Source: Cetorhinus maximus (lineage: Eukaryota). Taken from it: a stretch of DNA of 64,000 bases. The notes under the pieces are model-generated. The model searched no databases and was not told the origin of the DNA. It was given only the letters and a program-made list of their open reading frames with translations. The position numbers and the translations under genes were made by a program. Of the stretch, positions 2,071 through 62,724 are shown in pieces. The stretch is taken from positions 22,258,001 through 22,322,000 of the forward strand of contig NC_135901.1 in the NCBI RefSeq assembly GCF_964194155.1, given 5' to 3'. The number at the start of each line of letters is the position of its first letter. The first letter of the stretch is position 1.

Positions 2071-3105
2071 TCACTTGTGAACTCGCTGGTGTCTCAGCAG
2101 GCTGCCAGGCTGAGTGAATCTCTTCCCACACACGGAGCAGATGAATGGCTTCTCTCCGGTATGAGTGCGTTCATGTAAATGCAGGCTGCCAGGCTGAGTG
2201 AATCCCTTCCCACACACGGAACAGGTGAACGGTCTCTCCCCAGTGTGTGTGCGTTGGTGAGCAGTGAGGGCGGATGACAGCCTGAAACTCTTCCCACATG
2301 AAGTGCAGCTGAATGGCTTCTCCCCAGTGTGAACTCGCTGGTGTGTAAGCAGGGTGGATGACTGAGTGAATTCTTTCCCACACACAGAGCAGGTGAACGG
2401 CCTCTCCCTGGTGTGAACTCGCTTATGTGAATCGAGGTCGGCTGAACGCCTGAACCTCGTTCCACAACAAGTGCAGTAAAACGGCCTCTCCCCAGTGTGA
2501 ATTCGCTGGTGTGACAGCAGGGTAGATGACCGAGCAAATCCCCTCCCACACACAGAGGTGAATGGCTTCTCCCCAGTGTGAACTCGCTGGTGTTCAACAA
2601 GGGTAGATGAATGCCTGAACCTCTTTCTACAGGAAGTACAGTTGAATGGCTTCTCTTCAGTGTGAATTTGTTGGTGTGACTGAAGACCGGATGAATGAGT
2701 GAATCCCTTCCCACACACAGAGCAGGTGAACAGCCTCTCCCCAGTGTGAAGTTGCTGGTGTGCAGTGAGATGGGATGTCCGCCTGAACCTCTTTCCACAG
2801 CATGTGCAGCTGAACGGCCTCTCTTCAGTGTGAATTCTCTGGTGTAACATGAGGCAGGATGTTCGAGTAAATCCCTTCCCACACACGGAACAAATGAACG
2901 GCTTCTCCCCAGTGTGACTGCGTCGATGCATTTCCAGTTGGTGAGGATAATAGAATCCTTTACCACAGTCCTCACATTTCCACAGTTTCTCCATGGTGCC
3001 GGCCCTAATGTGGCTGCGTCGATGGATTTCCAGAAGGGATGGATAATTGAATCCTTTCCCACAGTCCTCACATTTCCATGGTTTCTCCATGGTTCCCATG
3101 TCCAT
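2071..3105 (-). CDS. Tandem C2H2 zinc-finger protein ZNF-A (12 fingers; finger 7 lacks its first Cys)
   Basis: 344-aa ORF of CxxC..HxxxH repeats with TGEKP/TGERP linkers. The first finger is duplicated (GTMEKPWKCEDC / GTMEKLWKCEDC) and the ORF ends HQRVHK*. Confidence 0.92.
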   Translation of the reverse strand: MDMGTMEKPWKCEDCGKGFNYPSLLEIHRRSHIRAGTMEKLWKCEDCGKGFYYPHQLEMHRRSHTGEKPFICSVCGKGFTRTSCLMLHQRIHTEERPFSCTCCGKRFRRTSHLTAHQQLHTGERLFTCSVCGKGFTHSSGLQSHQQIHTEEKPFNCTSCRKRFRHSSTLVEHQRVHTGEKPFTSVCGRGFARSSTLLSHQRIHTGERPFYCTCCGTRFRRSADLDSHKRVHTRERPFTCSVCGKEFTQSSTLLTHQRVHTGEKPFSCTSCGKSFRLSSALTAHQRTHTGERPFTCSVCGKGFTQPGSLHLHERTHTGEKPFICSVCGKRFTQPGSLLRHQRVHK

Positions 3106-3530
3106 GTGTCTCTCCAGGTTGGATGATTAGGTGAAGCCTCATCCATATACACAACACATGTACAGTTTCTCCCACTGTGAACAATGCGATGCTTTTTCAG
3201 GCTAACTGGTTAAAGCTCTTTCCACATGTTGTGCACTGGAACACACTCACTCAGGTGTGTGTGTGTCTCAGTGTTTTTCCAGTCACACTGATGTTTGAAA
3301 TCTTTTCCCACAGACAGAACAGACAAATATTTCTCCTTCACATTTAAAGGCCAATGATATTCAGGTCCAGATGCATCGAGTGGTTGTCAGATCTTGACGT
3401 GATGTTTGGTTTGAGTTTCCTGTCTGTAAATCCTCCCTTTCTAATGCCCTGGGAAAGGAGTTTACAAATGTCATCGCTGTAAGTCCAGGATAGAAATTCA
3501 GAACTGACAGTTCTAGTTTCTGTGGAACAT
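3106..3530 (-). other. ZNF leader (decayed fingers plus acceptor module) of ZNF-A
   Basis: The reverse complement aligns with 49178-49613 and 51991-52430 (tttcaaacatcagtgtgactggaaa; gaaactagaa.tgtc.gttctgaatttcta). Confidence 0.8.
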
Positions 3531-6066: not shown

Positions 6067-6342
6067 TGAATTCTACATTAAATCCATCCACTATTCCATA
6101 ACCCTTAATACTCTTGCCTCACAAATGTCCAGCAATCTCAGTTTTTAAATCGTTAACTGACGAAATCTCAACAGAATTCCAGGTTTCCACTATATTTTCT
6201 GTCAAGTGATTTCTGACATTGTTCCTGAACAGCCTAATCTCAGTTACACAAATAAATATCACTGATTTGTACATTTAAATGGTAACAATTATTTTACTTT
6301 TAACTAGTCATACAACACATTTTTAGAAAAACTATAATTTTA

Positions 6343-6505
6343 GTAAAATACGGTGGATGCTGGAAATCTGAAATAAAAACAGAAAGTTCTGGAAATCCTC
6401 AGCAGGTTTGGCAGCTTCTGTGAAGAGAGAGAAACAGATTTAACATTTCCAATCCAATATGATTCTTCTTCAGAACTGAGTATTTCCAGCATTCTGATTT
6501 CATTT
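6343..6505 (-). mobile_element. Penelope-like terminal-repeat fragment with partial inversion and degenerate hammerhead
   Basis: Reverse complement of the 7210-7345 tail; reads agttCTGAAGAagaatcatattggattgGAAATgtt on the minus strand. Confidence 0.7.
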
Positions 6506-6639
6506 TAAACACATAATTGATGTAAACTTTATTGTCCTTACAGGTATCTGGATGTAAATCTGATTTCAGACCTTCCTCTGAACAGTTTTCAAACTGACTC
6601 CAGCTCATTGTCCATTCCTTCACTAAAAACCCGGATGGA

Positions 6640-6746
6640 AAACACTCAGCGCAAGATGGCGGCGGCCGGTTGCCCGGGTAACCCGGGCCTGCCCCTGGGA
6701 GGAAGCCCCGTCCTCACACCCCTGCCTTCACCAAGATGGCCGTTCA
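6640..6746. promoter_or_regulatory. CpG-rich promoter segment with YY1-like motifs
   Basis: caagatggcggcgg (6652) and caagatggcc (6732). Contiguous with 7349 onward once the Penelope insertion is removed. Confidence 0.6.
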
Positions 6747-7348
6747 CTAAGCACTTTACAGCCTTCCTGACTGAATATTGAGTGCAACAATTTTAGATCA
6801 TGAACTCTCTCCTCCATCCCCACCCCCTTTCTGATTTTCCCCCTCCTTTTTGTTTTTTCCAATAATTTATATAGATTTTTCTTTTCCCACCTATTTCCAT
6901 TAATTTTAAATGTATTTCCATCCGTTTTATCTCTCCCATTTAGCCTTTTTCGATTCCTTCATCCCACCCCACCCCCACTAGGGCTATCTGTACCTTGCTT
7001 GTCCTGCTTTCTACCCTTAATTAGCACATTCCTTAGATAATATCACCACCTTCAACACCTCTTTGTTCTTTTGTCTGTAACATCTTTTGGTTATCTCCAC
7101 CTATCACTGGCCCTCTATCCAGCTCTTCTTGTTCCCAACCGCCCCCCCCCCACCCCACCCCACCGGCCATTAAACCAGCTTATATTTCACCCCTTTTCTA
7201 TTTTTCCTTAGTTCTGTTGAAGAGTCATGCGGACTCGAAACGTTAACTGTGCTCCTCTCCGCAGATGCTGCCAGACCTGCTGAGTTTTTCCAGGTATTTT
7301 TGTTTTTGTTTTGGATTTCCAGCATCCGCAGTTTTTTGCTTTTATATT
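6747..7348 (+). mobile_element. 5'-truncated Penelope-like element (end of GIY-YIG ORF, 3' UTR, terminal repeat)
   Basis: Colinear with 42612-43177; flanked by the 11-bp TSD atggccgttca (6736-6746 and 7349-7359). Confidence 0.88.
7210..7248 (+). ncRNA. Minimal type-I hammerhead ribozyme motif (core variant CUGUUGA)
   Basis: agtt-CTGTTGA-a-gagtc-atgcg-gactc-GAAAC-GTT-aact: stem I agtt/aact, stem II gagtc/gactc, palindromic ACGT stem III. Confidence 0.75.
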
Positions 7349-8030
7349 ATGGCCGTTCATGATCCTGGCTCCCTGAACAAGACCCGCCATCCTCTCCCAA
7401 GATGGCGGCCGGCGATCCCGCTCCCAGTGCGCAGGTGCAGTGTGGGTGTGCGCTCTGAGCATGCTCAGTGTCAGTCACGGTGACAGAGTGAGGAGGAGCG
7501 GATGGTTCGGGAGGTGGGAGGAGATTGTGAGCACAGGGTAGGGAGGGAAACTGCGGCTGGACTGGGAACTGGATCAACTTCTGGGGTAGGCCCCAGGCCC
7601 CGTGTTTACCCCGCGATGACAGGCCCGGGGGGAGGGAGCGATGGAGCCGGCGGCTGGATGGGGAGGATTTGGAAACACTTTGTGGATCCGAAAACCCTGA
7701 GGAATAATTGTCAGCTCCTGGTTTGCAGCTGCGGGGCTTCTCCCTCCCGGGAACAGGCCCAGGTTAACGGCCGCCATCCTGGGTCAGCGAGTGGAGGATG
7801 GTTCACATCAGAGGATGGGGGAGGGGGGACAATAAATAAGAGGTTACACTTTGGGCTCAAATCAATGAGGAATCTGATCTGTGGGAAGGAAGGAAACCCT
7901 GGGAGGTGGACGGGGAGGGTTCAGAAACACCCGCTGGAGGCCCCAAACCCCCAATAAGAACCTGCAGGTCCCGCATTTGCAGCTCAGGGTCTTTATGCTT
8001 TATGTGCGGCCATCTTGTTGAAGCAACAGG
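7349..8030 (+). promoter_or_regulatory. CpG island / promoter of ZNF-B (possibly bidirectional with ZNF-A)
   Basis: High CpG density, YY1-like caagatggcggc (7398) and NRF1-like tgcgcagg/gagcatgc motifs. Paralogous to 57530-57880 and lies between the divergent ZNF-A and ZNF-B. Confidence 0.7.
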
Positions 8031-8660: not shown

Positions 8661-9058
8661 ACCTATGGTGATGACTTTAGTGAACTTCTTTCACAGCCGC
8701 TTTGAAGTGAAGGATTGCAGAAGTGAAATTCAGATCAAACCTCATACCAAGTTTTGGTTGAGTCAGTCCATTCATCAGGACCTCAATATCATCCGCCTTT
8801 GAATGTGGAAGAAGAAATGTTTCTCTGTTCTGTCTGAGGGAAAAGATTTCAAACATCAGTGTGACTGGAACAGCACCAAGACACACACACCCAAGAGAGA
8901 GTGTTCCAGTGAACTGACTGTGGGAAGAGCTTTAACCAGTTACACAGCCTGAGGAAAACATCACAGTATTCACAGCAGGGAGAAGCTGTGCACATGTTCT
9001 GTGTAGGTGAGGCTTCAAGCGATTGTCCAACCTATAGGAACACAAACGCACCCACACA

Positions 9059-9625
9059 ATGGAGAAGCTGTGGAAATGTGAGGATTGTGGGAAAGGATTC
9101 AGTTACCCATCCCTGCTAGAAAACCATCAACGCAGTCACACTGGGGAGAGGCCGTTCACCTGCTCCGAGTGTGGAAAGGGATTCACTCAGTCATCCAACC
9201 TATCATTACATCAGCGAGTTCATAGCGGGGAGAGGCCGTTCACCTGCTCTAAGTGTGGGAAGGGATTCACGGTTTTGCCCACCCTGCTGAGACACCTGCG
9301 AACCCACACTGAGGAGAAGCCATTCAGCTGCACTTTCTGTGGAAAGAGGTTCAGGCAGTCTTCTAACCTCGTTTTACATCATCAAGTTCACACTGGGGAG
9401 AGACCGTTCATCTGCTCCTCGTGTAGGAAAGGATTCAATCAGTCATCCAATCTCACTGCACACCAGCGAGTTCACACTGGGGAGAGACCGTTCACTTGCT
9501 CGCTGTGTGGGAAGGGATTTGCAAAGTCTTTCAACCTGCTGACCCACCAACGTACTCACACTGAGAAGAGACCATTCAACTCTCTGTGTGTGGGAAGGGA
9601 TTCACTCAGGCACGATGCCTCCTGA
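9059..9625 (+). CDS. C2H2 zinc-finger protein ZNF-B (6 intact fingers; 7th frameshifted)
   Basis: 188-aa ORF starting MEKLWKCEDC. A frameshift near 9580 moves it into the alternative frame; the ancestral HK* stop is still visible at 9640-9648. Confidence 0.8.
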   Translation: MEKLWKCEDCGKGFSYPSLLENHQRSHTGERPFTCSECGKGFTQSSNLSLHQRVHSGERPFTCSKCGKGFTVLPTLLRHLRTHTEEKPFSCTFCGKRFRQSSNLVLHHQVHTGERPFICSSCRKGFNQSSNLTAHQRVHTGERPFTCSLCGKGFAKSFNLLTHQRTHTEKRPFNSLCVGRDSLRHDAS

Positions 9626-11861
9626 GACATCAGCAAGTTCATAAGTGACTGCAGGGATCGGATTCTGCTGTTATTCCTGCTGTTAGTCGTGTTTAGTATT
9701 GATAGTCTGACAATATTTTGTTTCTTTATGCTGATGTTAACAGCCCAATAACTGGGTGGAGTTTAATATTCTGGAGATGTCACTGACTTTTGAGGCTGCA
9801 GTGTCCCTTTTTAAAAGCGCCATCTGTGATCTTTCTCCTTAGTTCAAGAACTCTCAAGAGGAACCCACTTACAATAAAATTATGAACTTCTTTTTGAATC
9901 TTAAATTGATCTTTGGTGCAAAATCTACCATTCAGTATCTCAAAGATACAACTGCAGGTGTCAAAATATTTTTTTCTTCAAAGGCTCTTGAGATTTTCTT
10001 GAGGGCTATTCTTTGATTTTGGAGAACTACGAGTTTGGGTTTCAGGGGCTCCTTTTTCATTCTCACTATTAGGTGCTACAGTCACACAGTAACATTATCT
10101 TGTGTATTTACATTGATCTTTTTGGGGGGGTCCCCTCTTTCAATAGATAACAGCACAAATACCCCACAGTGTATGTATTAAATCTTTTAACTTGGAATCT
10201 ATAAATAAGATGTTTTTGTTAATTTATTTTAAATTAATCTCCCATACTTCATTTCCTTCATGAAAATTCCAACTATTTGATACAAAGTAACTTATTGGGA
10301 ATGAACAGCCCCTGGACAGTGGGAAAGGAGGAGGTGAAAGTGCAGATGTTGAATTTCCTACACTTACATGCGAAGATGCCTTGGGAAGTTTATAAGTTCT
10401 GTATTTCTAAAAACAAACATATTATAGAAAGGATTTGCCTCGTGTGCGTTCTCACTACATGACTAACTGACATTGTTTTCACTGTCTGTGGATAAGGTGA
10501 AGTTGCTGCCGAATGTCTGTCTGAGGTCCTTTTCTCTTTGGAAAACTGGTTTGAAAAAGTAACACTTGGCAGGGTTTATATCAAATCCCCTGACAGTTAT
10601 AGTCACCTATCATCAAATAAAGACACTTTCTAATATTCTATGTCAAGTGAACCTCTTTCTGGATAAAAACAGGACCTGCTGCAATCACCAAAGTAGATTT
10701 AACACATTCCACTTTGCTGAAATTAAGTTAACCAGATACTTTTAATCCTTGGTTTCGGGTTTTACTCATTTTATTGGATACTGTTCAAATCATAAAGCGC
10801 TTATATATTTGGTAAATAAACGCAGAATGTTTTTTTAGATCAGATGGTGGAGCAGGAAAAAATTCTTGTCTTTCTGATCTTCATTGTGTGCGTAATTACA
10901 TTCAAAATTCATCAGTAACATCACTATACCAGCTGAGATCAGCTCAGAATGGGGGTTCTGTATGTTGTCTGTGAGCATTAACCAGCACATAACTGTTTAA
11001 GAATGTAAACCTTGACAAATATATCTCAGCTTCTAATTTGGCATATGTGATTAGCCAGTGAGTTCACAATACCTGGTTACTCAAATACCTGTACTGTACA
11101 CTTGTGGCTGTTTTAACCCACCTCCTGAGTTATATAAAAATAATCGAGGCTCACTTGGCAGAATGGAGAGAGCTCTGTGCTTCTCTGCAGGTTGATTCAA
11201 TCTTTATGAGGCTCACACTGCTCTGAAACCTTCTAGTTCTGTCCCAGGGAGACACAGCTCCTGCACACATCACTGACTCAGGCAGCACGCTTGCAAGCTT
11301 CCTACCTAAAAATGGGTGGCAAAGCTGCTCCTCCAATCACAGATTCTGTCTGGAGAAGCAGCAAAATCACGAGAGACAGAATCTGTGATTGGAGGAGCTG
11401 ATCCTCACAGGTCCTGTCTCCCTCATACGGGGGTAATTTTTCTTCCAGTGGCTGCTTCCATGATAGAATTGTCACAGGCATCTTGGGGGTGAATTCGTCC
11501 CCTGTGTATTTTGAACCTAGGTTCTGAAATACTGTCACACTGATTTTAAGGCTTCCTGGAGTAATACACAGATCCAGATCTTGCCACCTAACACCAATCC
11601 ATATCCTCATCTGAATTCACATTTTCATGTGATTGTCCAATACAGACATTTATCATTTAATTCCTTTAAACGTGGTCCAGCACACATAAACAACAAGAGA
11701 TTGTCTTTGAAATCAGTTGTTCCTTTATCATGTGTTTTTCTGAATGATGACAGTATTAACCTTTTCTTGAACCTATCCTAACCCTTCTGCCAGTTCATTT
11801 ATTAAAACCAGGGATTCTCTTTGTTCTAATAGTGACATTCCCTGTCCGCCCAGTTATTCAC

Positions 11862-12467: not shown

Positions 12468-12698
12468 TTTTTTTTTTGTAAAAATATACTTTATTCATAA
12501 AAATCTTCAATCACATTCAAAACCATTTCAAAAACAACATTACAAGGGTACAATCCAGGTTAAACTTTTACATAATGTATCACCAGGTGCATCAGTACAA
12601 ACAATATTACAGTCATTTACAGCCTTTCATTTTGATCTGTACATCCCGAGGGGCTCTAAACAGTTCCCAGTCTCTCGGTGCGCTGTGGTAGAAAGGTC

Positions 12699-15600
12699 TT
12701 AGACAGCGACCCTTCCCCATTGCGCCTTTGCGGCAGCTGCCCCAAGCTTTAGTGCGTCCCTCAGCACGTAGTCCTGGACTTTGGATTGTGCCAGTCCGCA
12801 ACAATCGGTCGGGGACAAATCTTTGTGCTGGAAGACCAACAAGTTTCGGGCAGACCAAAGCGCGTCTTTCACCGAGTTGATGATCCTCCAGCTGCAGTTG
12901 ATGTTTGTCTCGGTGTGTGTCCCTGGGAACAGCCCGTAGAGCACAGAGTCCTGTGTCACAGAACTGCTCGGGATGAACCTCGACAGCAACCACTGCATCT
13001 CTCTCCAGACTTTCTTTGCAAAGGCACAATCCACAAGGAGGTGAACAACGGTCTCTTCCCCACCACAGCCACCTCGAGGGCATCGTGCAGAGGGGGTGAG
13101 ACTCCTGGCGTGTAGGAAGGATCTGACGGGGAGGGCCTTTCTCACCACCAGCCAAGCTACGTCTTGGTGCTTGTTGGAAAGTTCTGGCGATGAGGCATTC
13201 TGCCAAATGACTTTGACAGTCTGCTCGGGGAACCATCCCACAGGGTCCACCCTCTCCTTATCCCTCAGAGCCTCTAGGACGTTACGTGCTGACCACTGCC
13301 TGATGGACTTGTGGTCAAAGGTGTTTTTCTGCATAAATTTTTCCACCAGGGACAGGTGGTACGGCGCGGTCCAACTACTTGGAGCGTTCCGCGGCAGCGT
13401 GGCCAGACCCATCCTTCGCAACACCGGGGACAGGTAGAACCTCAGCACGTAGTGACACTTGGTGTTTGCGTACTGAGGGTCTACGCACCGCTTGATGCAG
13501 CCGCACACAAAGGTGGCCATCAGTATGAGGGCGATGTTGGGCACGTTTTTTCCCCCTTTATCTAGAGGCTTGTACATCGCGTCCCTGCGGACACGATCCA
13601 TTTTCGACCTCCAGATAAAGCGGAAGATGGCTCGAGTGATCGCCATCGCGCAGGAGTGTGGAATGGGCCAGACCTGCGCCACGTACAGCAACAGCGAGAG
13701 TACCTCACACCTGATGACCAGGTTCTTACCCGCAATGGAGAGGGAGCGTCGCTCCCACATGCCCAGTTTCCTTTTCACCATAGCCACTCGCTCCTTCCAG
13801 TTTCTAACGCATGCCCCGGTCCCTCCGAACCATATCCCCAGCACCTTCAGGCCGTCAGCCCTGACAGTGAAGGGGACAAAGGATCGGTCAGCCCAGTTCC
13901 CAAAGAACATGGCCTCGCTCTTCCCACGGTTTACCTTGGCTCCCGAGGCCAGTTCGAACTGGTCGCAGACGTGCATCAGTCTGCGCACCGACAGCGGATC
14001 CGAGCAGAAGACGGCGACGTCGTCCATGTACAGGGAGGCTTTTACCTGAGTGCCTCCACTGCCTGGGATCGTCACTCCTCTTATGCCCGGATCCTTCCTG
14101 ATGGACTCGGCAAAGGGTTCTATGCAGCACACAAAAAGGACAGGCGAGAGAGGGCAGCCCTGCCTGACTCCAGATTTAATCGGAAAGCTATCTGTTTCCC
14201 ACCCATTGATTGAGACTGCGCTACTGATGTTAGTGTAGAGCAGTTGGATCCAATTTCGAATTCCCTCCCCAAAGCCCATTTTGGAGAGCACATCCCCCAT
14301 GTAGGTGTGCGATATTCTGTCAAAGGCCTTCTCCTGATCCAAGCTGATGAGGCAGGTATCCACACCCCTGTCCTGTACATAGGCAATCGTATCCCTGAGC
14401 AGCGCCAGGCTGTCAGAGATCTTCCTGCCTGGCACAGAGCAGGTCTGGTCAGGGTGAATCACCAATTCCAGAGCGGATTTGACCCGGTTGGCGATGACCT
14501 TGGACAGAATCTTATAGTCCATATTCAACAGTGAAATGGGTCGCCAATTTCTAATTTCCTCCCTTTCCCCCTTGTGCTTGTAGATGAGGGTGATGATGCC
14601 TTTCCTCATGGATTCTGACATGCTGCCGGCCAGGAGCATACTCTCGTACACTTCTAGCAGGTCTGGGCCGATCAAGTCCCACAGAGCCGAATACAACTCC
14701 GCCGGCAGGCCGTCGCTTCCGGGGGTTTTACTCTTCTCGAAGGACTCGAGGGCCTTAGTCAGTTCGTCAGGAGTTAGCGGTTTGTCTAGGCTCTCCCGCG
14801 TACTGTGGTCTAGGACCTCCGTGATAGAGGACAGGAAGGACTGGGAGGCCGTGCTGTCCGTGGGCTTCACGTCATACAGTCCGGCATAAAAGGATTTGCT
14901 GATCCTCAGAATGTCGGACCGTGATGACTTTACTGAGCCGTCTTCTTCCTTCAGGCTGCTGATCACAGAGCGCTCTCTGTGTACCTTTTGGAAGAAGAAA
15001 CGTGAGCACGTCTCATCCTGCTCCACGGAGCGGACTCTGGAACGGAAGATGATCTTGGAGGCCTCCGAGGCAAAGTGCGAGGCTTGCTGGCCCTTCACCT
15101 CTTGGAGCTCCTCCTTGACATCGACCCCCATCGACCGCAGCCGGAGCAGATTCTGCATCTTTTCCTGGAGTCGGGACATTTCCCTCTGTTCCTTTCTAGC
15201 TTTCTGGGTGCCTTTGAGGATGAAAAACCTCTTGATGCTTCCCTTGATCACTTCCCACCAGTGTGTCAGGGACTCAAAGAGGGGTTTCACGGTTCTCCAA
15301 CCTTTGTAATCCCTCTTGAGCTCCTCAATGTTCTCTGGGGTCAGCAGTTGCACATTTAGCTTCCATGCCCCCCTGCCCACCCTCAGGTCTTCCTCCAAGT
15401 GGCAGTCCGCCAGTAGGAGGCAGTGGTCAGAGAAGAACACCGGCTTGACGTCGGTGGATCTGACTGTGAATGCACGGGACACAAACAGGAAGTCTATCCT
15501 GGAACGAATGGACCCGTCTGGCCGCGACCAGGTGTATCTACGCTGCGCTCCGTCTGCAGGGTTGCTGAAGACGTCGTGCAGCTTGGCATCCTTAACTGTT

Positions 15601-16106
15601 TCCATCAGGGATCTGGACGTAGCGTCCAATCTGCTTCCGGCCCTGCCGGATCGTCCAGCCGCATCGATGATGCAGTTGAAGTCCCCGCCCAGAATGACCG
15701 GCCTGGAGGTCGCCAGCAGCAGTGGGAGCTGCTGAAAAACCTCCAGCCGCTCAGCCCCTTGTGCCGGGCCGTACACGTTAATTAACCGGAGTGGAGCGTT
15801 CTTGTACATTACGTCTGCTACCAGGAGTCGCCCGCCCACCACCTCCTTGACCTCGGAGACGGTGAAGTTGCCTCCCCGCAGCAGAATACCCAGGCCGGAG
15901 GAACGAGAGTCGTTTCCGCCCGACCAGATCGATGGCCCGTGGGACCACCATCGTGACCATTGCCTGTAGGAGCTGAGGTGCGGTATCGCACACTCCTGCA
16001 GAAACAACAGGTCAGCTTTGACCTTGGCTAGGTAGTCCAAGGTCGCAACACATCGCGTAGTAGATTTAATGCTACGCACATTTATGGATACAATCTTTAA
16101 ACCCAT
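12699..16106 (-). CDS. Tx1 ORF2: APE endonuclease, reverse transcriptase and C-terminal CCHC knuckle (intact, 1135 aa)
   Basis: Endonuclease motifs SINVRS, LQE, GGDFN, SRID, FSDH; RT motifs PGSDG, WRPISLLN, DQEKAFD, GVRQGCPLSP, YMDD; C-terminal CPRGGCGGEETVVHLLVDC. Confidence 0.95.
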   Translation of the reverse strand: MGLKIVSINVRSIKSTTRCVATLDYLAKVKADLLFLQECAIPHLSSYRQWSRWWSHGPSIWSGGNDSRSSGLGILLRGGNFTVSEVKEVVGGRLLVADVMYKNAPLRLINVYGPAQGAERLEVFQQLPLLLATSRPVILGGDFNCIIDAAGRSGRAGSRLDATSRSLMETVKDAKLHDVFSNPADGAQRRYTWSRPDGSIRSRIDFLFVSRAFTVRSTDVKPVFFSDHCLLLADCHLEEDLRVGRGAWKLNVQLLTPENIEELKRDYKGWRTVKPLFESLTHWWEVIKGSIKRFFILKGTQKARKEQREMSRLQEKMQNLLRLRSMGVDVKEELQEVKGQQASHFASEASKIIFRSRVRSVEQDETCSRFFFQKVHRERSVISSLKEEDGSVKSSRSDILRISKSFYAGLYDVKPTDSTASQSFLSSITEVLDHSTRESLDKPLTPDELTKALESFEKSKTPGSDGLPAELYSALWDLIGPDLLEVYESMLLAGSMSESMRKGIITLIYKHKGEREEIRNWRPISLLNMDYKILSKVIANRVKSALELVIHPDQTCSVPGRKISDSLALLRDTIAYVQDRGVDTCLISLDQEKAFDRISHTYMGDVLSKMGFGEGIRNWIQLLYTNISSAVSINGWETDSFPIKSGVRQGCPLSPVLFVCCIEPFAESIRKDPGIRGVTIPGSGGTQVKASLYMDDVAVFCSDPLSVRRLMHVCDQFELASGAKVNRGKSEAMFFGNWADRSFVPFTVRADGLKVLGIWFGGTGACVRNWKERVAMVKRKLGMWERRSLSIAGKNLVIRCEVLSLLLYVAQVWPIPHSCAMAITRAIFRFIWRSKMDRVRRDAMYKPLDKGGKNVPNIALILMATFVCGCIKRCVDPQYANTKCHYVLRFYLSPVLRRMGLATLPRNAPSSWTAPYHLSLVEKFMQKNTFDHKSIRQWSARNVLEALRDKERVDPVGWFPEQTVKVIWQNASSPELSNKHQDVAWLVVRKALPVRSFLHARSLTPSARCPRGGCGGEETVVHLLVDCAFAKKVWREMQWLLSRFIPSSSVTQDSVLYGLFPGTHTETNINCSWRIINSVKDALWSARNLLVFQHKDLSPTDCCGLAQSKVQDYVLRDALKLGAAAAKAQWGRVAV

Positions 16107-41685: not shown

Positions 41686-41780
41686 CTGAGGAAGAAGTCA
41701 TATTGGACTCGAAACATTAAATCTGTTTCTCTCTCCACAGATGCTGCCAGACCTACTGAGTTTTTTCAGCATTTTCTGTA
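41686..41780 (+). mobile_element. Penelope terminal-repeat fragment starting at a hammerhead core (CUGAGGA..GAAAC)
   Basis: CTGAGGAagaagtcatattggactcGAAACatt followed by cagatgctgccagacct. Confidence 0.65.
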
Positions 41781-41789
41781 GATGAGGCT

Positions 41790-42310
41790 GGATGCACAAG
41801 TGAATCCTTTCCAATGTATGGAGCAGATGAACTGCATCTCCCTGGTGGAAAGGACGTTTCCTCTTGTAGATGAGTCCAGAACTAGGGAGCACTGTTTTAA
41901 AATTAGGGGTCACCCATTTAAAACGGAGATGAGGCAAAAAAAATTTCTCCCAGAGGGTCGTGAGTCGATGGAACTCTCTTCCTGAAAAGATGGTGGAAGC
42001 AGAGTTTTTGAATATTTTTAAGGCAGAGGTGGATAGATTCTTGGGAAGCAAGGGAGTGATAGATTATTGGGAGTAGGCAGGATGCAGATTTCAGGCTACA
42101 ATCAGATCAGCCATGATCTTATTGAATGGCAGAGCAGGCTCGATAAGCTGAATGGCCTATCCTGCTCCTTGTTCGTATGTTTGTTCATATGCCTCATAAG
42201 GCAGTGGAGGCAGGGTCACTGAGTACTTTTAAGCCTGAGGTAGATATATGCTTGTTAGGCAAGGGAATCAATAGTTATTGGGGGTCGATGGGAATGTGGA
42301 ACTTGAAACA
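41790..42310 (+). mobile_element. CR1 3' fragments
   Basis: FPLVDESRTREHCFKIRGHPFKTEMR; 3' end as at 26560-26755. Confidence 0.8.
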
Positions 42311-42339
42311 CCGTCCAAGGGCCTAAACACTCCTCTCAA

Positions 42340-42669
42340 GTGAAGCAGCACTTCACTTGCACTTCCCTCAATTTAGTCTACTGCATTCGCTGCTCCCAAT
42401 GCGGTTTCCTCTACATTGAAGAGACCAAATGCAGACTGGGTGACCGCTTTGCGGAACACCTTCGGTCTGTCTGCAAGCATGACCCAGACCTCCCTGTCGC
42501 TTGCCATTTCAACACTCCACCCTGCTCTCGTGCCCACATGTCCATCCTTGGCCTGCTGCAATGTTCCAGTGAAGCTCAACGCAAACTGGAGGAACAGCAC
42601 CTCATCTTCCGACTAGGCACTTTACAGCCTTCCGGACTGAATATTGAGTTCAACAACTTCAGATCATGA
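42340..42669 (+). pseudogene. Penelope GIY-YIG endonuclease domain (5'-truncated ORF)
   Basis: FTCTSLNLVYCIRCSQCGFLYIEET..RLGDRFAEH..VACHFN..RKLEEQHLIFRLGTLQPSGLN. Confidence 0.88.
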
Positions 42670-43040
42670 ACTCTCTCCTCCATCCCCACCCCCTTTCCAA
42701 TTCCCCTTTTTCCAATAATTTATATATATTTTTCTTTTCCCACCTATTTCCATTATTTTTAAATGTATTTCCATCCATTGTTTTATCTCTACCTTTTAGC
42801 CTATTTCGATCCCTTCCCCCACCCCCACTAGGGCTATCTGTACCTTGCTCATCCTGCTTTCTACCCTTCATGTCACCATTAGCACATATCTTAGCTAATA
42901 TCACCACCTTCAACACCTCTTTGTCCTTTGTCTATGACATCTTTTGGCCATCTCCACCTATCACTGGCCCTCTATTCAGCTCTACCAGTCCCACCCCACC
43001 TCAAATCAGCTTATATTTCACCTCTTTTCTATTTTTCCTT

Positions 43041-43079
43041 AGTTCTAATGAAGAGTCATTCGGACTCGAAACGTTAACT
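43041..43079 (+). ncRNA. Minimal type-I hammerhead ribozyme motif (core variant CUAAUGA)
   Basis: agtt-CTAATGA-a-gagtc-attcg-gactc-GAAAC-GTT-aact. Confidence 0.75.
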
Positions 43080-43554
43080 GTATCCCTCTCCGCAGATGCT
43101 GTCAGACCTGCTGAGTTTTTCCAGGTATTTTTGTTCTTGTTTTGGATTTCCAGCATCTGCAGTTTTTTGCTTTTACCTAGGTGCATCGGTTGTTCTGTTT
43201 CTGGACTCAGTGTTCTCTGTAATTCTGTGTCATCTCCTCCCAACTCCTGATCAGTATATTCCACATCCACCTTGTACTGCACATGCTCAGAGTACAACCC
43301 GGTGCTGAGTAATCACACTGGGCTCCTGTAGTCATTGATGGGGCACATTCTGGCCACTTGAGAAATAGTGCATTATATCACCATCACGGAAAACCAATTG
43401 GTTAACAGAATTTTTTGTCAACAAATTGAGATTGGATCAAATGGCCTGTTTCTGTAATGAAATCCTACAGGGTAGAGGTGGATTAATACTCAGGTCTATG
43501 CAGTTGCGGCCCAAGAGGTGAATTACTACTCAGGCTATGAAACTCCCCACCATA

Positions 43555-44825: not shown

Positions 44826-45044
44826 AGGTGAAGCAAAGTAGAAGGTCAGGACAGATGGGAGCCAAGGATAAATTTGACAAGACGTCATGGACACAAGACA
44901 GTGTGAGTGTTAATGGTTATGTTTGAGTTTTGGTGAACACCTTGTCAAACACCAGGAGGGTAATGGAAAACAGTGAAGGTGAACATGGTGAAAGAGCCAA
45001 AAGGAAATCCTGTCAGCGAGAAGACCTTCTCTGTAACCTGTCTT

Positions 45045-48000
45045 TTTTTTTGCAAAAATATACTTTATTCACAAAATATCTTCAACAACATTTCAAACCA
45101 TTTCAAAATCACCAACACAAAAATACAATCAGGTTCAACTTTTACAACGTGTATCACGAAATCCATTGATACAAAAAATGAATATTACAATAATTTGCAG
45201 ACATTCATTTTGAGCTGTACAGCCCGAGGGGGTTTAGACAGTTCCCAACCCCTCGGTGCACTGTGGCAGAAAGGTCTTAGGCAGCGACCCTTCCCCATTG
45301 CGCCTTTGCGGCGGCTGCCCCAAGCTTTAGTGCGTCCCTCAGCATGTAGTCCTGGACTTTGGAATGTGCCAGTCTGCAACACTCGGTCGGGGACAACTCT
45401 TTGCGCTGGAAGACCAACAAGTTTCGGGCAGACCAAAGAGCGTCTTTCACCGAGTTGATGATCCTCCAGCTGCAGTTGATGTTTGTCTCGGTGTGTGTCC
45501 CTGGGAACAGCCCATAGAGCACAGAGTCCTGTGTCACAGAACTACTCAGGATGAACCTCGACAGAAACCACTGCATCTCTCTCCAGACCTTCTTTGCAAA
45601 GGCACAATCCACCAGGAGGTGAACAACGGTCTCTTCCCCACCACAGCCACTTCGAGGGCAACGTGCAGAGGGGTTGAGACTCTTGGCATGTAGGAAGGAT
45701 CTGACAGGGAGGGCCTTTCTCACCACCAGCCAAGCTATGTCTTGGTGCTTGTTGGAAAGTTCTGGTGATGAGGCATTCTGCCAAATGACTTTGACAGTCT
45801 GCTCGGGGAACCATCCCACAGGATCCACCCTCTCCTTTTCCCACAGGACCTCTAAGACGTTACGTGCCAACCACTGCCTGATGGACTTGTGGTCAAAGGT
45901 GTTTCTCTGCATAAATTTTTCCATGAGGGACAGGTGGTAAGGCACGGTCCAACTACTTGGAGCATTCCGCAGCAGTGTGGCCAGACACATCCTTCGCAAC
46001 ACCGGGGACAGGTAGAACCTCAGCACATAGTGACACTTGGTGTTTGCATACTGAGGGTCTACACACCGCTTGATGCAGCCGCACACAAAAGTGGCCATCA
46101 GTATGAGGGTGATGTTGGGCACGTTTTTTCCCCCTTTATCTAGAGGCTTGTACATCGTGTCCCTGCGGACATGATCCATTTTCGACCTCCAGATAAAGCG
46201 GAAGATGGCTCGGGCGATCGCCACCCCGCAGGACTGTGGAATGGGCCAGACCTGCGCCACGTACAGCAACAGTGAGAGTGCCTCACACCTGATGACCAGG
46301 TTCTTACCCGCAATGGAGAGGGAGCGTCGCTCCCACATTCCCAGTTTCCTCTTCACCATAGACACTCGCTCCTTCCAGTTTCTAATGTATGCTCTGGTCC
46401 CTCCGAACCATATCCCCAGCACCTTCAGGCCGTCAGTCCTGACAGTGAAGGGGACAAAGGATCGGTCAGCCCAGTTCCCAAAGAACATGGCCTCGCTCTT
46501 CCCACGATTTACCTTGACTCCCAAGGCCAGTTCAAACTGGTCGCAGATGTGGATCAGTCTGCGCACCAACAGCGGATCCGAGCAGAAGACGGCGACATCA
46601 TCCATGTACAGGGAGGCTTTGACCTGAGTGCCTCCACTGCCTGGGATTGTCACTCCTCTTATGCCCGGATCATCCCTGATGGACTCAGCAAAGGGTTCTA
46701 TGCAACACACAAAAAGAACAGGCGAGAGAGGACAGCCCTGCCTGACTCCAGATTTAATAGGAAAGCTATCTGATTCCCACCCATTGATTGAGACTGCGCT
46801 ACTGATGTTAGTGTAGAGCAGTTGGATCCAATTGTGAATTCCCTCCCCAAACCCCATTTTGGAGAGCACATCCCCCATGTAGGTGTGCGATATTCTGTCA
46901 AAGGCCTTCTCCTGATCCAGGCTGAAGAGGCAGGTATCCACACCCCTGTCCTGCACATAGGCAATCGTATCCCTGAGCAGCGTGAGGCTGTCAGAGATCT
47001 TCCTGCCTGGCACAGTGCAGGTCTGGTCAGGGTGGATCACCAATTCCAGAGCGGATTTGACCCGATTGGCGATGACCTTGGACAGAATCTTATAGTCCAC
47101 ATTCAACAGTGAAATGGGTCGCCAATTTCTAATTTCCTCCCTTTCCCCCTTGTGCTTGTAGATGAGGGTGATGATGCCTTTCCTCATGGATTTTGACATA
47201 CTGCCGGCCAGGAGCATACTCTCGTACACTTCTAGCAGGTCTGGGCTGATCCAGTCCCACAGAGCCGAATACAACTCCGCCGGCAAGCCGTCGCTTCCGG
47301 GAGTTTTACTCTTCTCGAAGGACTCAAGGGCCTTAGTCAGTTCATCAGGAGTTAGCGGTTTGTCCAGGCTCTCCCGTGTACTGTCGTCTAAGACCTCCGT
47401 GATAGAGGACAGGAAGGACTGGGAGGCCGTGCTGTCCGTGGGCTTCACGTCATACAATCTGGCATAAAAGGATTTGCTGATCCTCAAAATGTCGGACCGT
47501 GATGACTTTACTGAGCCATCTTCTTCCTTCAGGCTGCTGATCACAGAGCTCTCTCTGTGTACCTTTTGGAAGAAGAAACGTGAGCACGTCTCATCCTGCT
47601 CCACGGAGCGGACTCTGGAACGGAAGATGATCTTGGAGGCCTCCGAGGCAAAGAGCGAGGCTTGCTGGCTCTTCACCTCTTGGAGTTCCTCCTTGACATC
47701 GACCCCCATCGACTGCAGCCGGAGCAGATTCTGCATGTTTTTCTGGAGTTGGGACATTTCCCTCTGTTCCTTTCTAGCTTTCTGGGTGCCTTTGAGGATG
47801 AAAAACCTCTTGATGTTTCCCTTGATCGCTTCCCACCAGCGTGTCAGAGACTCAAAGAGGGGTTTCATGGTTCTCCAACCTTTGTAATCCCTCTTGAGCT
47901 CCTCAATGTTCTCTGGGGTCGGCAGTTGCACGTTTAACTTCCATGCCTCCCTGCCCACCCTCTGGTCTTCCTCTAAGTGACAGTCAGCCAGTAGGAGGCA

Positions 48001-48364
48001 GTGGTCAGAGAAGAACACCGGCTTGACGTCGGTGGATCTGACTGCGAACGCACGGGACACAAACAGGAAGTCTATCCTGGAACGGATGGACCCGTCTGGT
48101 CGCGACCAGGTGTATCTACGCTGCGCTCCGTCTGCAGGGTTGCTGAAGACGTCGTGCAGCTTGGCATCCTTAACTGTTTCCATCAGGGATCTGGACGTAG
48201 CGTCCAATCTGCTGTCGGCCCTGCTGGATCGTCCAGCCGCATTAATGATGCAGTTGAAGTCACCGCCCAGAATGACCGGCCTGGAGGTCGCCAGCAGCAG
48301 TGGGAGCTGCTGAAAAACCTCCAGCCGCTCGGCCCCTTGTGACAGGGCGTACACGTTAACGACT
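45045..48364 (-). mobile_element. Tx1-clade element, 5'-truncated within the endonuclease
   Basis: Poly(A) at ~45043-45051; 18-bp TSD ttctctgtaacctgtctt at 45027-45044 and 48365-48382; close relative of Tx1-1. Confidence 0.93.
45277..48360 (-). pseudogene. Tx1 ORF2, open but missing about 108 N-terminal residues
   Basis: Aligns to Tx1-1 ORF2 from NVY onward with no stops; YMDD intact. The listed N-terminus (48361-48441) is flanking DNA. Confidence 0.88.
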
Positions 48365-51625: not shown

Positions 51626-51725
51626 CTCTGAAGAAGAGTCATATGGACTTGAAACATTAACGCTGTTTCTCTCTCCACAGATGCTGTCAGACCTGCTGGG
51701 TTTTTCCAGAATTTTCTGTTTCTAC
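51626..51725 (+). mobile_element. Penelope terminal-repeat fragment with hammerhead core CUGAAGA
   Basis: CTGAAGA-a-gagtc-atatg-gactt-GAAAC-att followed by cagatgctgtcagacctgctgg. Confidence 0.7.
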
Positions 51726-53139: not shown

Positions 53140-56100
53140 ACAGCGCTGTTGTAAGAACCTAAGAGAAGGGAAGAGAAGCGTGAGAGGTGTGTCTCCAGTT
53201 GCAGCTCCTGGAAGCCCGGGCTTTGGAGCTGGAGCGGCAGCTGGGGACACTGTGGAGCATCTGCGAGGCGGAGAGTATCATAGAGAGGTGGTCACACCGT
53301 AGGCTAAGAGTCCACAGGCAGGAAGGGAATGGGTGACCACCAGGCAGAGCAAGAGGACTAGGCACGCAGTGCAGGAATCTCCTGTGGCTATTGCCTTGTA
53401 AAACAGATATACCACTTTGGATACTGTTGAAGGGAATGGCCTCTCAGGGGAAAGCAGCAACAGCCAAATTCGTTGCACCGTGGTTGGCTCTGCTGCACTG
53501 GTGAAGAGTAAAAAGTGTGGGAATGCAATAATTAATTCAATTGGAAGGGGAATAAATCGACATTTCTGTGGCCGCAAACGAGACTTCAGTATGGTATGTT
53601 GCCTCCCTGGTGCTAGGGTCAAGGATGTCTCAGAGCGGCTGGAGGACATTCTGAAGGGGGAGGGTGAACAGCCAGTGGTCCTGGTACACATTGGTACACA
53701 CGACATAGGCAAAAAAAGGGATGAAGTCCCAAAAGCAGAATATAGGGAGTTAGGAAATAAGTTGAAAAGTAGGATCTCAAAGGTAGTGATTTCAGGATTA
53801 CTACCAGTGCCACTTGCTAGTCAGAGTAGAAATAGCAGGATATGTCGGATGAATACGTGGCCGAAGAGATGGTGTGAAGGGGAGGGTTTCAGATTCCTGG
53901 GACATTGGGACCCAGTTTTGGGGGAGGTGGGCCCAGTACAAACTGGACGGGTTACACCTGGGCAGGACCGGGACTGATGTCCTAGGAGGAACATTTGCTA
54001 GAGTGGTTGGGGAGGGTTTAAACTAAAATGGCAGAGGGATGGGAACCTATGTAAGAAGTCAGAGGAAGGGGAATCAAGGACAAGAACAAAAGACAGAAAG
54101 GGGAATAAGAAAAGTGATAGGCAGAGAAATCAAGGGCAAGAATCAAACCAGGCCCTCAGTGAACATTAGTGGGAACAGGGCAAGTAATGTTAAAAAGACA
54201 AGCCTTAAGGCTTTATGCCTTATTGCGAGGAGCATTCACAATAAAGTGGATGAATTAACTGCGCAAATAGATGTAAACAGGTATGATATAGCCGGGATTA
54301 CGGAGGCATAGCTGCAGGTTGACCAGGGATGGGAACTGAACATCCGGGGGGAATTCAGTATTTCGGAAGGAAAACAAAAAGGAAAAGGCGGAGTTGCATT
54401 GCTGGTTAAAGAGGAAATTAGCTCAATGGTGAGGAAAGATATGAGCTCCGATGATGTGGAATCTGTATGGGTAGAGCTGAGAAACACTAAGGGGCAAAAA
54501 ACGCTAGAAGACGTTGTATATAGACCCCCAAGCTGTAGTGGTGATATTGGGAATGGCATTAAACAGGAAATTAGAGACGCATGCAATAAGGGAACATCTG
54601 TAATTATGGGTGACTTTAACATGCATATAGATTGGGCAAATCAAATCAGTAACGATACCGTAGGGGAGGAATTCCTGGAGTGTGGACGGGATGTTTTTCT
54701 GGATCAATACTTTGAGGAACCAGCTGGAGAACAGGCCATCCTAGATTGGGTATTATGTAATGAGAAAGGAATAATTGGCAATCTAGTTGTGCGAGGCCCC
54801 TTGGGGATGAGCGACCATAATATGAATTAATTCTTCATCAAGATGGAGAGTGACGTAGTTGATTCTGAGACTAGGGCCCTGAATCTTAATAAGGGAAACT
54901 ATGATGGTATGAGGCGTGAGTTGGCTATGATGGATTGGGAAACATTACTTCAAGGATGAGGGTTGATAGGCAATGGCAAACATTCAAAAGAGTGCATGGG
55001 TGAACTGCAGCAATTGTTTATTCCTGTCTGGTGCAAAAATAAAATAGGAACGGTGGCCAAACCATGGCTTACAAGGAAAATTAGAGATAGTATGAGATCC
55101 AAGGAAGAGGCATACCATTTGGCCAGAAAACGTAACAGGCCTGAGGATTGGGAGCAGTTTAGAATTCAGCAAAAGAGGACCTGGCGATTGTTTAAGAAGG
55201 GGAATGTAGGGTACAAGAGTAAGCTTGCCGGGAACATAAAAACTGACTGTAAAAGTTTCTGTAGGTATGTGAAGAGAAAAAGATTGGTGAAGACAAATTT
55301 AGGTCCCTTACAGTCAGAAACAGGAGAATTTATAATGGGGAACAAAGAAATGGCTGACCAACTAAATACATTCTTTGGTTCTGTCTTCACAAAGGAGGAC
55401 ACAAATAACATACCAGAAATGTTGGAGAACACAGGGTTTAGTGAGAGGGTGGAACTGAAAGAAATCAATATTATTAGGGAAATTGTGTTGGGGAAATTGA
55501 TGAGATTGAAGGCAGATAAATCCCCAGGGCCTGATAATCTACATTCCAGAGTACTAAAGGAAGTGGCCCTGGAAATAGTGAATGCATTGGTGGTCATCTT
55601 CCGAAATTCTATAGACTCTGGAACAGTTCCTACAGATTGGAGGGTAGCTAATGTAACCCCACTACTTAAAAAGGGAGGTAGAGAGAAAACAGGGAATTGT
55701 AGACCAGTCAGCCTGACATTGGTACTTGGGAAAATTTTAGAGTCCATTATAGAAGATTTAATAGCTGAGCACTTGGAAAACAGTAGCAGAATTGGACAGA
55801 GTCAGCATGGATTTATGAAAAGGAAATCATGCTTGACAAATCCACTGGAATTTTTCGAGGATGTAACGAGTCGAGTTGATGAGGGGGAGCCAATGGATGT
55901 GGTTTATTTGGACTTTCAGAAGGCTTTCGACAAAGTCCCACATAGATTGGCGTGTAAAATTAAAGCGCATGGGATTGGGAGTAGTGCATTGAGATGGATA
56001 GAAAACTGGTTGGCAGACAGGAAACAAAGAGCAGGAATAAACGGGTCTTTTTCCGAATGGCAGGCAGTGACTAGTGGGGTACCGCAGGGATCGGTGCTGG

Positions 56101-57093
56101 GACCCCAGTTATTCACAATATATATTAATGATTTAGATGAGGGAACTAAATGTAATGGATCCAAATTCGCAGATGACAAAAAGCTGGGTGGGAGGTTGAG
56201 CTGTGAGGAGGATGCAGAGATGCTTCAGTGTGATTTGGACAAGCTGAGTGAGTGGGCAAATGCATGGCAGATGCAGTATAATGTGGATAAATGTGAGGTT
56301 ATCCATTGTGGTAACAAAAACAGGAAGGCAGATGATTATCTGAATGGCTATAAATTGAGAGAGGGGAATGCGCAACGAGGCCTGGGTGTTCTCGTACACC
56401 AGTCGCTGAAGGTAAGCATGCAGGTGCAGCAGGCAGTAAAGAAGGAAAATGGTATGTTGGCCTTCATAGCCAGAGGATTCGAGTACAGGAACAGGGATGT
56501 CTTCCTGCAATTGTACAGGACCTTGGTGAGACCACACCTGGAATATTGTGTGCAGTTTTGGTCTCCTTATCTGAGGAAGGATGTACTTACTATGGAGGGA
56601 GCGCAGCGAAAGTTTACCCGACTGATTCCTGGGATGGCGGGACTGACATATGAGGAGAGATTGAGTCAGTTAGGATTACATTCGCTGGAGTTCAGAAGAA
56701 TGAGAGGGGATCTCATAGAAATCTATAAAATTCTAACAGGACTAGACAGGGTAGACGCAGGAAGGATGTTTCCGGTGGTGGGGGCGTCCAGAACCAGGGT
56801 TCACAGTCTGAGGATATGGGGTAGACCATTTAGGACTGAGATGAGGAGAAATTTCTTCACCCAGAGAGTGGTGAGACTGTGGAATTTGTTACCACAGAAA
56901 GTAGTTGAGGCCAAAACATTGTATGTTTTCAAGAAGGAGTCAGATATAGTTCTTGGGGTGAAAGGGATCAAGGATAGGGGAGAAAGTGGGAGCAGGCTAT
57001 TGAGCTGGATGATCAGCCATGATCATAATGAATGGCAGAGCAGGCTCGAAGGGCCCAATGGCCTACTCCTGCTCCTAGTCTCTTTGTTTCTAT
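53140..57093 (+). mobile_element. Near full-length CR1 LINE (ORF1 SGNH esterase plus ORF2)
   Basis: ORF1 VCCLPGARVKDV..VLVHIGTHDI..VVISGLLP; endonuclease VYRPP and MGDFN; RT ORF 54963-57095 with KFADD. Several stops. Confidence 0.95.
53417..53977 (+). pseudogene. CR1 ORF1 SGNH/GDSL-esterase remnant
   Basis: Degenerate block I (IINSI), block II (PGA) and block III (HIGTHD). Confidence 0.8.
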
Positions 57094-61784: not shown

Positions 61785-62235
61785 TTGTGTCCAGAACTTT
61801 CTGTGTAGAGATTTAACGAGCAACCGTGAAGGTGGTTTCTCCAAACCTCCCAGGGTTTCCTTCCTTCCTTCTCTCCCTCGCTAAGTTGAAGTCAGTCTCT
61901 TGTCCCGTTTTAGTTTCTGATTCTCTTCCTGCCCAATGTAACCCTGAGCTCATGTTTTACAAGGACCAAATATTTTGATAGCTTCCCGAACAGATCAGAG
62001 CCCTCCTGAAACAAAAACAAAAATTGCTGGAAAAACTCCCAGCATCTGTGGAGAGAAAGACAGAGTTAACGTTTCAAGTCCGTATGACTTCTTCAGAGTC
62101 TTTCCACAGATGCTGTTAGACCTGCTGGGTTTTTCCAGCAATTTTTGTTTTTGTTTCAGATTTCCAGCATCCGCAGTATTTTGCTTTTTATCGGAGCCCT
62201 GCTCATTGATTTGATCCCAAAGCGTAACCTGTTAA
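61785..62235 (-). repeat. Inverted paralog of 57835-58105, interrupted by a Penelope hairpin
   Basis: cctcccagggtttccttcc and cttcctgcccaatgtaaccctgagctca are reverse complements of 57918-58030. Confidence 0.8.
62005..62193. mobile_element. Palindromic Penelope terminal-repeat insertion containing a hammerhead core
   Basis: Arms ~62007-62052 and ~62103-62158 are reverse complements; minus-strand CTGAAGAagtcatacggacttGAAACGTTaact; TSD gagccct at 61998-62004 and 62194-62200. Confidence 0.8.
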
Positions 62236-62710: not shown

Positions 62711-62724
62711 TGGGGGGAGCTGTG

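What the first reader, a model, noticed from the sequence alone, without database searches (positions are those of the whole stretch)
7210..7248. Hammerhead ribozyme motifs in the Penelope terminal repeat (six copies)
Seen: agtt-CTG(T)TGA-a-gagtc-loop-gactc-GAAAC-GTT-aact at 7210, and the same with CT(A)ATGA at 43041. The two different single changes point to an ancestral canonical CUGAUGA. Further cores lie at 41686 (CUGAGGA), 51628 (CUGAAGA), ~62063-62096 (-) and ~6436-6477 (-). Stem I (agtt/aact) and stem II (gagtc/gactc) pair, stem III is a loop-less ACGT palindrome, and there is one extra A after the core. Known: Penelope-like elements carry minimal type-I hammerheads thought to cleave as dimers. 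Inference: this abundant repeat is a self-cleaving RNA family cutting after GUU, and the two copies with all three stems intact each carry a core mutation.
Basis: partly seen in the sequence, partly recalled or inferred. Interest (0 to 1): 0.7.

Follow-up and report, generated by a model that had tools for sequence, protein, structure and literature searches.

The report
Active Penelope lineage lost hammerhead A6
This is a copy of a known type of small self-cutting RNA motif at the end of a jumping gene; the odd core letter is not a one-off mutation but is shared by most copies, and the youngest intact elements carry another non-standard letter there while keeping the rest of the fold, so the ribozyme is likely slowed down rather than lost.

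Summary
The motif at 7210-7248 is real: a minimal type-I hammerhead in the terminal repeat (pLTR) of a 5'-truncated Neptune-type Penelope-like element (6747-7348, 11-bp target duplication). That system is published (Cervera & De la Pena 2014). G5A at 43045 is private, but CUGUUGA at 7214 is a subfamily trait: 21,213 exact U6 matches genome-wide against 5,176 with CUGAUGA. Copies with the longest end branches have A6, middle ones U6. The youngest intact elements (924-aa frame, 0.26% apart) have C6 in 51 of 52 hammerheads and A6 in none. The other 12 core positions did not change, and all five stem changes keep pairing, one pair compensatory. Short copies start at the 5' edge of the hammerhead (21 of 32), not at the cut site (2 of 32). 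Best reading: a likely slowed or conditional ribozyme whose fold is still selected; cleavage is untested. This copy is solitary and probably inert. The scan noted an A6U Penelope lineage before, in another genome.

The parts
6747..7348 (+). 5'-truncated Penelope-like (Neptune-type) element, U6 subfamily: last codons of the endonuclease frame, 3' UTR, pLTR
   Evidence: 92% to the 3' end of full-length L032; 3,066 first-look candidates genome-wide; bounded by the target duplication
6736..6746 (+). Target-site duplication, left copy (11 bp)
7349..7359 (+). Target-site duplication, right copy (11 bp)
7209..7249 (+). Minimal type-I hammerhead with U at core position 6 (7217); predicted cut between 7244 and 7245
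   Evidence: stem I pair probabilities 0.75-0.98, stem II 0.99-1.0
7206..7215 (+). Place where short copies of the family begin (-8..+1 of C3); likely the 5' end of the element's RNA
   Evidence: 21 of 32 short copies; the RNA start is inferred
7265..7345 (+). Rest of the pLTR; its ATG opens a short upstream frame that stops after about 30 codons in L036 and L037, ahead of the long frame
42309..43179 (+). Second 5'-truncated copy, A6 subfamily, with the endonuclease C-terminus (42310-42663) and a hammerhead at 43040-43080 carrying a private G5A
41686..41779 (+). Short decayed pLTR, A6 core (CTGAGGA), stem I and 16.2 broken
51626..51724 (+). Short decayed pLTR, A6 core (CTGAAGA), 16.2 decayed, stem I weak
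62006..62098 (-). Short decayed pLTR, A6 core, stem II deletion; head to head with an inverted core-less partner at 62099-62188 (+)
6342..6480 (-). Short decayed pLTR, A6 core, 11.1, 15.2 and stem I broken

Best explanation
The motif is the minimal hammerhead of a Penelope-like retrotransposon's terminal repeat, in a lineage whose core position 6 reads A, U or C in different subfamilies and likely changed in that order, while the rest of the fold stayed intact, so it likely works as a slowed or conditional ribozyme. Shown: identity of the element, subfamily-wide U6 and C6, intact young C6 elements with a hammerhead at both ends about 3.29 kb apart, pairing-preserving stem changes. Inferred: the RNA starts at the 5' edge of stem I; most template RNA is copied uncut (reverse transcription starts about 100 nt 3' of the downstream hammerhead and reads through it); cutting after GUH would need two hammerheads pairing through ACGU (tandem transcript) and probably the element's protein, as for PAc; loss of A6 would lower that rate without abolishing it. 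The copy at 7214 is solitary and about 3% diverged and is likely inert.
For: Element: RVT_1 and GIY-YIG in one 924-aa frame with DKG, YIDD and a CX4CX2C linker. Position 6: exact 33-nt matches U6U7 21,213, A6U7 5,176, C/G6U7 4,003, N7 not U 7,953 (control 0 each). Sample chosen on a 30-mer downstream of the hammerhead: N6 = U 33, C 23, A 17, G 3, gap 3 of 79 (90 fetched, 11 dropped because they begin inside or after the core); U4, A9, A13, A14, U16.1 79 of 79; N17 U 51, C 28, never A or G. Tree without hammerhead columns is a ladder old A6 - A6 - U6 - C6 with shrinking end branches. Intact young elements: 56 of the 60 best protein matches have no stop, median 0.26% apart, 51 of 52 hammerheads C6, none A6 (neighbouring loci overlap, so a few are counted twice). 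From old A6 or 7214-type to youngest: 23-29% difference outside the hammerhead, 0 of 12 other core positions changed, 5 of 20 stem positions changed and all keep pairing (rough P 0.007), including U-A to C-G at 10.4/11.4. Natural A6C hammerheads are slow in Mg2+ but not dead (PMC3088659, PMC7151607). PAc hammerhead cuts only with the element's protein (PMC11167929).
Against: No cleavage data for any variant. In a mutational scan, single changes in the CUGA turn gave low activity (PMC9901934), and minimal PLE hammerheads are already weak with A6, so U6/C6 forms may be dead. Only 2 of 90 copies begin near the cut site, and 58 of 90 read through the hammerhead: no genomic footprint of cutting. 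Core conservation alone is weak (P about 0.03-0.07). The root rests on branch lengths; the A6 versus U6/C6 split has support 81/80 only, and 3 of 23 copies of the 43045-type clade have U6, so conversion or recombination occurs. PAc hammerhead mutants insert normally in vitro.
Confidence: 0.55

Rival explanations
1. The U6 and C6 forms no longer cut at all; the fold is kept for a non-catalytic job such as binding the element's protein, protecting the RNA 5' end or controlling translation.
For: Copy ends show no pile at the cut site; hammerhead mutants do not affect PAc insertion in vitro and no RNA ends were found at its cut site; Naiad PLEs spread without canonical hammerheads; CUGA single mutants are low.
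Against: Catalytic G8, G12, the C3-G8 pair, two CpGs and N17 = U/C are kept in every subfamily, more than a plain hairpin should need; position 6 is the one core place with a known active natural variant.
Confidence: 0.25
2. Position 6 is neutral in this context: in the dimer, or with the element's protein bound, U6 and C6 cut about as well as A6.
For: Three of four letters at position 6 occur in amplified subfamilies; everything else is conserved; protein assistance is known for PAc.
Against: A6C lowered the rate in 0.3 mM Mg2+ from 0.30 to 3.6e-6 per min in another hammerhead (PMC7151607 Table 1); older families kept A6.
Confidence: 0.15
3. The sequence is conserved at DNA level (internal promoter or endonuclease site) and the pairing pattern is a leftover.
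For: Short copies begin at an initiator-like YCAGTT/TTAGTT (initiator consensus recalled); D. virilis Penelope has an internal promoter (PMC2377424).
Against: Stem letters change at about the background rate (5 of 20) yet always keep pairing, which points to RNA structure, not DNA sequence.
Confidence: 0.05

Closest known systems
Minimal hammerheads (min-HHR) in pLTRs of metazoan Penelope-like elements (Cervera & De la Pena 2014, PMC4209133; Lunse et al., RNA Biol 14:1499, not readable here)
   Same: Type I, no loop III, palindromic 15.2-16.2, extra nucleotide between 9 and 10.1, G10.1-C11.1, 4-5 bp stem I, one in each pLTR, thousands of solitary copies
   Different: A6 is replaced by U, then C, in the dominant and the youngest subfamilies; the text I read reports only the U3-A8 core variant
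A6C hammerhead of phage Bcep176 (Perreault 2011, PMC3088659; PMC7151607)
   Same: Same core change as in the youngest elements here; slow in Mg2+, better in Mn2+
   Different: A single phage ribozyme with full stems, not a loop-less dimer-type motif in thousands of retrotransposon copies; A6U was not covered in the passages read
PAc Poseidon element of Anolis (PMC11167929)
   Same: PLE with a pLTR hammerhead near the ORF start, tandem copies, internal start of reverse transcription
   Different: Poseidon clade; there the ORF starts inside stem II, here the long frame starts well downstream; no A6 change is mentioned in the passages read
Neptune clade of EN+ PLEs (PMC8557442)
   Same: RT, CX2-5CxxC linker, C-terminal GIY-YIG with CCHH-type residues, partial tandems and inverted 5'-truncated partners
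   Different: Clade placed by motifs only; no tree with named Neptune or Nematis references was built

Membership tests
EN+ Penelope-like element | Single ORF with RT and C-terminal GIY-YIG endonuclease | tested here: met
   L331 924 aa: RVT_1 E 8e-7, GIY-YIG E 4.5e-4, both just under Pfam's curated cut-offs; DKG, YIDD motifs
EN+ Penelope-like element | pLTRs from tandem or partial tandem copies; inverted 5'-truncated partners | tested here: met
   Hammerheads at both ends about 3.29 kb apart; tandem neighbours; inverted partners
Neptune clade | CX2-5CxxC linker between RT and EN | tested here: met
   CX4CX2C in P0001 and P0003; Nematis shares such a linker
Neptune clade | RT phylogeny with named Neptune elements | not tested
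   no named reference proteins were fetched
Minimal type-I hammerhead of PLEs | Stems I and II with G10.1-C11.1, extra nucleotide after A9 | tested here: met
Minimal type-I hammerhead of PLEs | Palindromic 15.1-16.1 without loop III, cut after NUH | tested here: met
   ACGT; N17 U or C in 79 of 79
Minimal type-I hammerhead of PLEs | Canonical core CUGANGA...GAAA | tested here: not met
   U6 at 7217; A6 in 17 of 79 sampled copies and 0 of 52 hammerheads beside intact young ORFs. Filed as a variant, not a plain member
Minimal type-I hammerhead of PLEs | Self-cleavage as a dimer | not testable with these tools
   only assembled contigs were offered, no raw RNA reads
Non-LTR retrozyme | Short non-coding tandem units each with a type-I hammerhead | tested here: not met
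   window copies are dispersed truncated pieces of a coding element

The most novel reading that the evidence does not exclude
An active vertebrate retrotransposon lineage has carried a hammerhead without A6 through tens of thousands of insertions and turned it into a switch: off as free RNA in Mg2+, so the template survives copying, and on only with the element's protein, a tandem partner or Mn2+. The A6, U6 and C6 subfamilies would be a natural allelic series for asking what PLE hammerheads are for.
Probability: 0.3. Interest if true: 0.7.

Novelty: new variant of a known kind. Interest (0 to 1): 0.47.

Why it matters
The job of the hammerhead in Penelope-like elements is still open (PMC8557442 says so; PMC11167929 finds it dispensable in vitro). 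Here a supposedly invariant core base was lost in a lineage that kept transposing and is likely still active, while the fold stayed under selection. That gives natural A6, U6 and C6 alleles, with an intact element, to test whether cutting helps, hurts or is irrelevant. It also means that searches requiring CUGANGA miss most hammerheads of this family. The copy at 7214 itself is an ordinary truncated insertion.

Tried and rejected
1) Rfam scan: no hammerhead hit, uninformative. 2) Idea that U6 blocks the ribozyme through an extra helix (U4.G16.2, G5-C15.2, U6-A15.1, U7-A14): it forms (P 0.91 in 20 U6U7 haplotypes), but A6U7 haplotypes hide ACGU as much by another helix (unpaired 0.34 against 0.33), so it explains nothing specific. 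3) Shifted core register (UUGAAGA) rejected by inspection: it breaks stem II. 4) ATG at 7265 as ORF start: rejected, the frame stops after about 30 codons in L036 and L037. 5) RNA evidence for the cut, or for transcription of this copy: only contigs; none bridges the element to its unique flanks; no conclusion. 6) Cofold of two copies: the minimum-energy dimer (-28.9 kcal/mol) is a mispaired rod; my hand-written one-junction structure was mis-paired at stem I, so its energy is not used. 7) Splice-acceptor reading of the pyrimidine tract + AG before stem I and before 7265: not testable, no joint supports it. 8) The pattern had a 6-nt loop II and so counted only a minor form (141). 9) Lunse et al. 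could not be read; ORF 62604-63350 was left out of the Pfam scan.

Full report
1. Observation. At 7214 the motif has stem I 7209-7213/7245-7249, core 7214-7220 with U at position 6 (7217), an extra A (7221), stem II 7222-7226/7232-7236, GAAA, a loop-less ACGT and N17 at 7244. A descriptor with one core mismatch finds 7214 and 43045 only, and nothing in 100 of 100 simulated windows. Both stems fold with probabilities of 0.75-1.0. The four short copies keep A6 but are decayed elsewhere. Rfam gives no hammerhead hit.

2. The element. The window is C24:22258001-22322000 of a 4.0-Gb genome, a C2H2 zinc-finger cluster full of LINE pieces. That the host is a cartilaginous fish is recalled from the look of the repeat and echoed by earlier scan notes; I did not test it. 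The hammerhead lies in a 602-bp insertion (6747-7348) with an 11-bp target duplication that matches the 3' end of full-length copies at 92%. [quoted passage not shown] Hammerheads sit at both ends about 3.29 kb apart.

3. Position 6 is a lineage trait. Of 37 aligned copies related to 7214, 34 have U6. Relatives of 43045 mostly have A6, and its four duplicated paralogs on the same contig have CTGATGA, so G5A there is private. Exact genome-wide matches in one 33-nt frame: U6U7 21,213, A6U7 5,176, C6 or G6 with U7 4,003 (first 100 rows read by eye: 88 C, 12 G), N7 not U 7,953 (first 100 by eye: 50 A6, 43 C6, 6 U6, 1 G6); reversed-pattern controls 0. That is roughly a quarter A6; exact matching undercounts old, decayed A6 families. 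With the core left free, the first 100 of 41,530 matches read U 69, C 15, A 12, G 2 and 2 junctions at position 6; other core places show single changes, apart from CpG decay at G12 (11 rows) (by eye). A sample chosen on a 30-mer downstream of the hammerhead (89,257 matches, first 90 fetched) gives U 33, C 23, A 17, G 3, gap 3 among the 79 that span the core. In contigs of four coded organisms, A was a minor letter at 7217 (4-16% of depth), with the caveat that the reference carried U and 14 rows were not shown.

4. Order and age. Trees built without the hammerhead give a ladder: old A6 (4.7-5.6% from consensus), 43045-type A6, several U6 groups (about 3%), then C6. The root is taken from branch lengths, not an outgroup; the A6 split has support 81/80, and some copies are mosaic. 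A protein search scored 60 of 70,490 candidates; 56 of 60 have no stop inside. The 28 of 29 fetched loci with a long frame differ by a median 0.26%, seven pairs not at all, which points to very recent or ongoing activity. Their 52 hammerheads are 51 C6, 1 U6 and no A6, 41 of them one haplotype (some loci overlap). Other Penelope families of this genome were not surveyed and may keep A6.

5. The fold is still selected. Outside the hammerhead the youngest elements differ by 23% from the 7214 type and 29% from old A6 copies. Inside, the 12 other core positions, with two CpGs, are unchanged (P about 0.03-0.07 by itself), N17 is U or C in 79 of 79, and 5 of 20 stem positions changed, all keeping a pair: U.G to C-G (2.5), U-A to U.G (1.1), A-U to G.U (10.2), U-A to C-G (10.4/11.4) (rough P 0.007). 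Stems thus change at about the background rate but only in pair-keeping ways, which points to RNA structure rather than a DNA motif. These are a few events on one lineage, not independent samples.

6. No footprint of cutting. Of 90 copies, 58 run through the hammerhead into the 3' UTR. Of the 32 short ones, 21 start at -8..+1 of C3, 9 inside the motif and 2 near the cut site at +31 (ends are good to a few bases). I read this as the RNA starting at the 5' edge of stem I and being copied mostly uncut. A circular template, cut and re-ligated, would also read through and is not excluded. Only contigs were offered, so RNA ends could not be seen.

7. Mechanism. Most likely (0.55) a slowed or conditional ribozyme: it would need a second copy pairing through ACGU, which tandem elements supply, and probably the element's protein; loss of A6 would lower the rate. 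Natural A6C hammerheads cut slowly in Mg2+ and better in Mn2+; PAc's hammerhead cuts only with protein and is dispensable for insertion in vitro. Rivals: dead but structurally needed (0.25), fully active (0.15), DNA-level constraint (0.05). The 7214 copy is about 3% diverged, 34 kb from the next same-strand core, and no contig ties it to a transcript; it is likely inert.

8. Literature. Seen: PMC4209133 parts 1-2 of 4 and two of its three supplements by term search, file 1 not searched; passages of PMC11167929, PMC8557442, PMC7151607 (with Table 1), PMC3088659, PMC9901934, PMC2377424, PMC6765202, PMC6155905; part 1 of 5 and passages of bioRxiv 10.64898/2026.07.22.740005. Lunse et al. was known only through a review's citation; it or unseen supplements may list position-6 variants. 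Searches for hammerhead + A6U, + A6C, + CUGUUGA/CUGCUGA, + shark + Penelope and Penelope-like + Neptune + ribozyme showed no paper on a position-6 variant in a Penelope element; the library lacks most subscription journals.

9. Earlier scan notes (read after the calls above up to 68) report an A6U lineage, a U4C lineage and U3-A8 lineages in other shark-like genomes, with similar readings of copy ends. They are unchecked and are not used as support; they suggest that core drift in such elements is recurrent. The step to C6 in the youngest intact elements and the pair-keeping stem changes were found here.

10. Verdict. Observation confirmed; interpretation partly supported; a new variant of a known kind; interest 0.47.

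Noticed in passing
window 6600-7960: The insertion sits in a G+C-rich stretch with CAAGATGGCGG motifs (6655, 7397; YY1-like, recalled) between a zinc-finger exon on - (2071-3126) and one on + (about 8665-9676), likely a shared promoter region; RNA-type contigs cover 7557-7959 but none bridges the insertion.
   Followed up: partly
window 41686-43179; L046, L047, L049, L052: The pair of copies at 41686 and 43045 was duplicated with the zinc-finger cluster at least five times on contig C24, which dates G5A to after the duplication.
   Followed up: yes
window 12469-15781 and 45043-48359: Two 94%-identical LINE ORF2 copies with long open frames (1141 and 1059 aa; APE endonuclease, RT, zf-RVT), in - strand.
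   Followed up: no
window 53402-57095: A LINE with a GDSL/SGNH-esterase-like ORF1 piece (Lipase_GDSL_2, E 5e-7) ahead of endonuclease and RT pieces.
   Followed up: no
window 44927-45024 (-): 98-bp piece of the same Penelope family's ORF N-terminus, next to the LINE at 45043.
   Followed up: no
L231/L232, L281/L282, L290/L291; window 62096-62099: Head-to-head inverted pLTR pairs often join at the stem I 5' arm, a recurrent junction that may reflect fold-back priming or endonuclease preference.
   Followed up: partly
window 7193-7211 and 7250-7264: Pyrimidine tracts ending in AG lie just before stem I and before the ATG at 7265; the first AG is kept in all subfamilies (it is also part of stem I), the second is lost in C6 elements. 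In D. virilis an intron ends at helix I.
   Followed up: partly
L267, L285, L286: Three of 79 sampled U6 copies share G16.2 to C, which breaks the ACGU palindrome; possibly a small subfamily that cannot dimerise.
   Followed up: no
G000 C24:58896846-58906116; C8:137523059-137528518: Full head-to-tail tandems (period about 3.29 kb) and inverted triplets of intact young elements.
   Followed up: no
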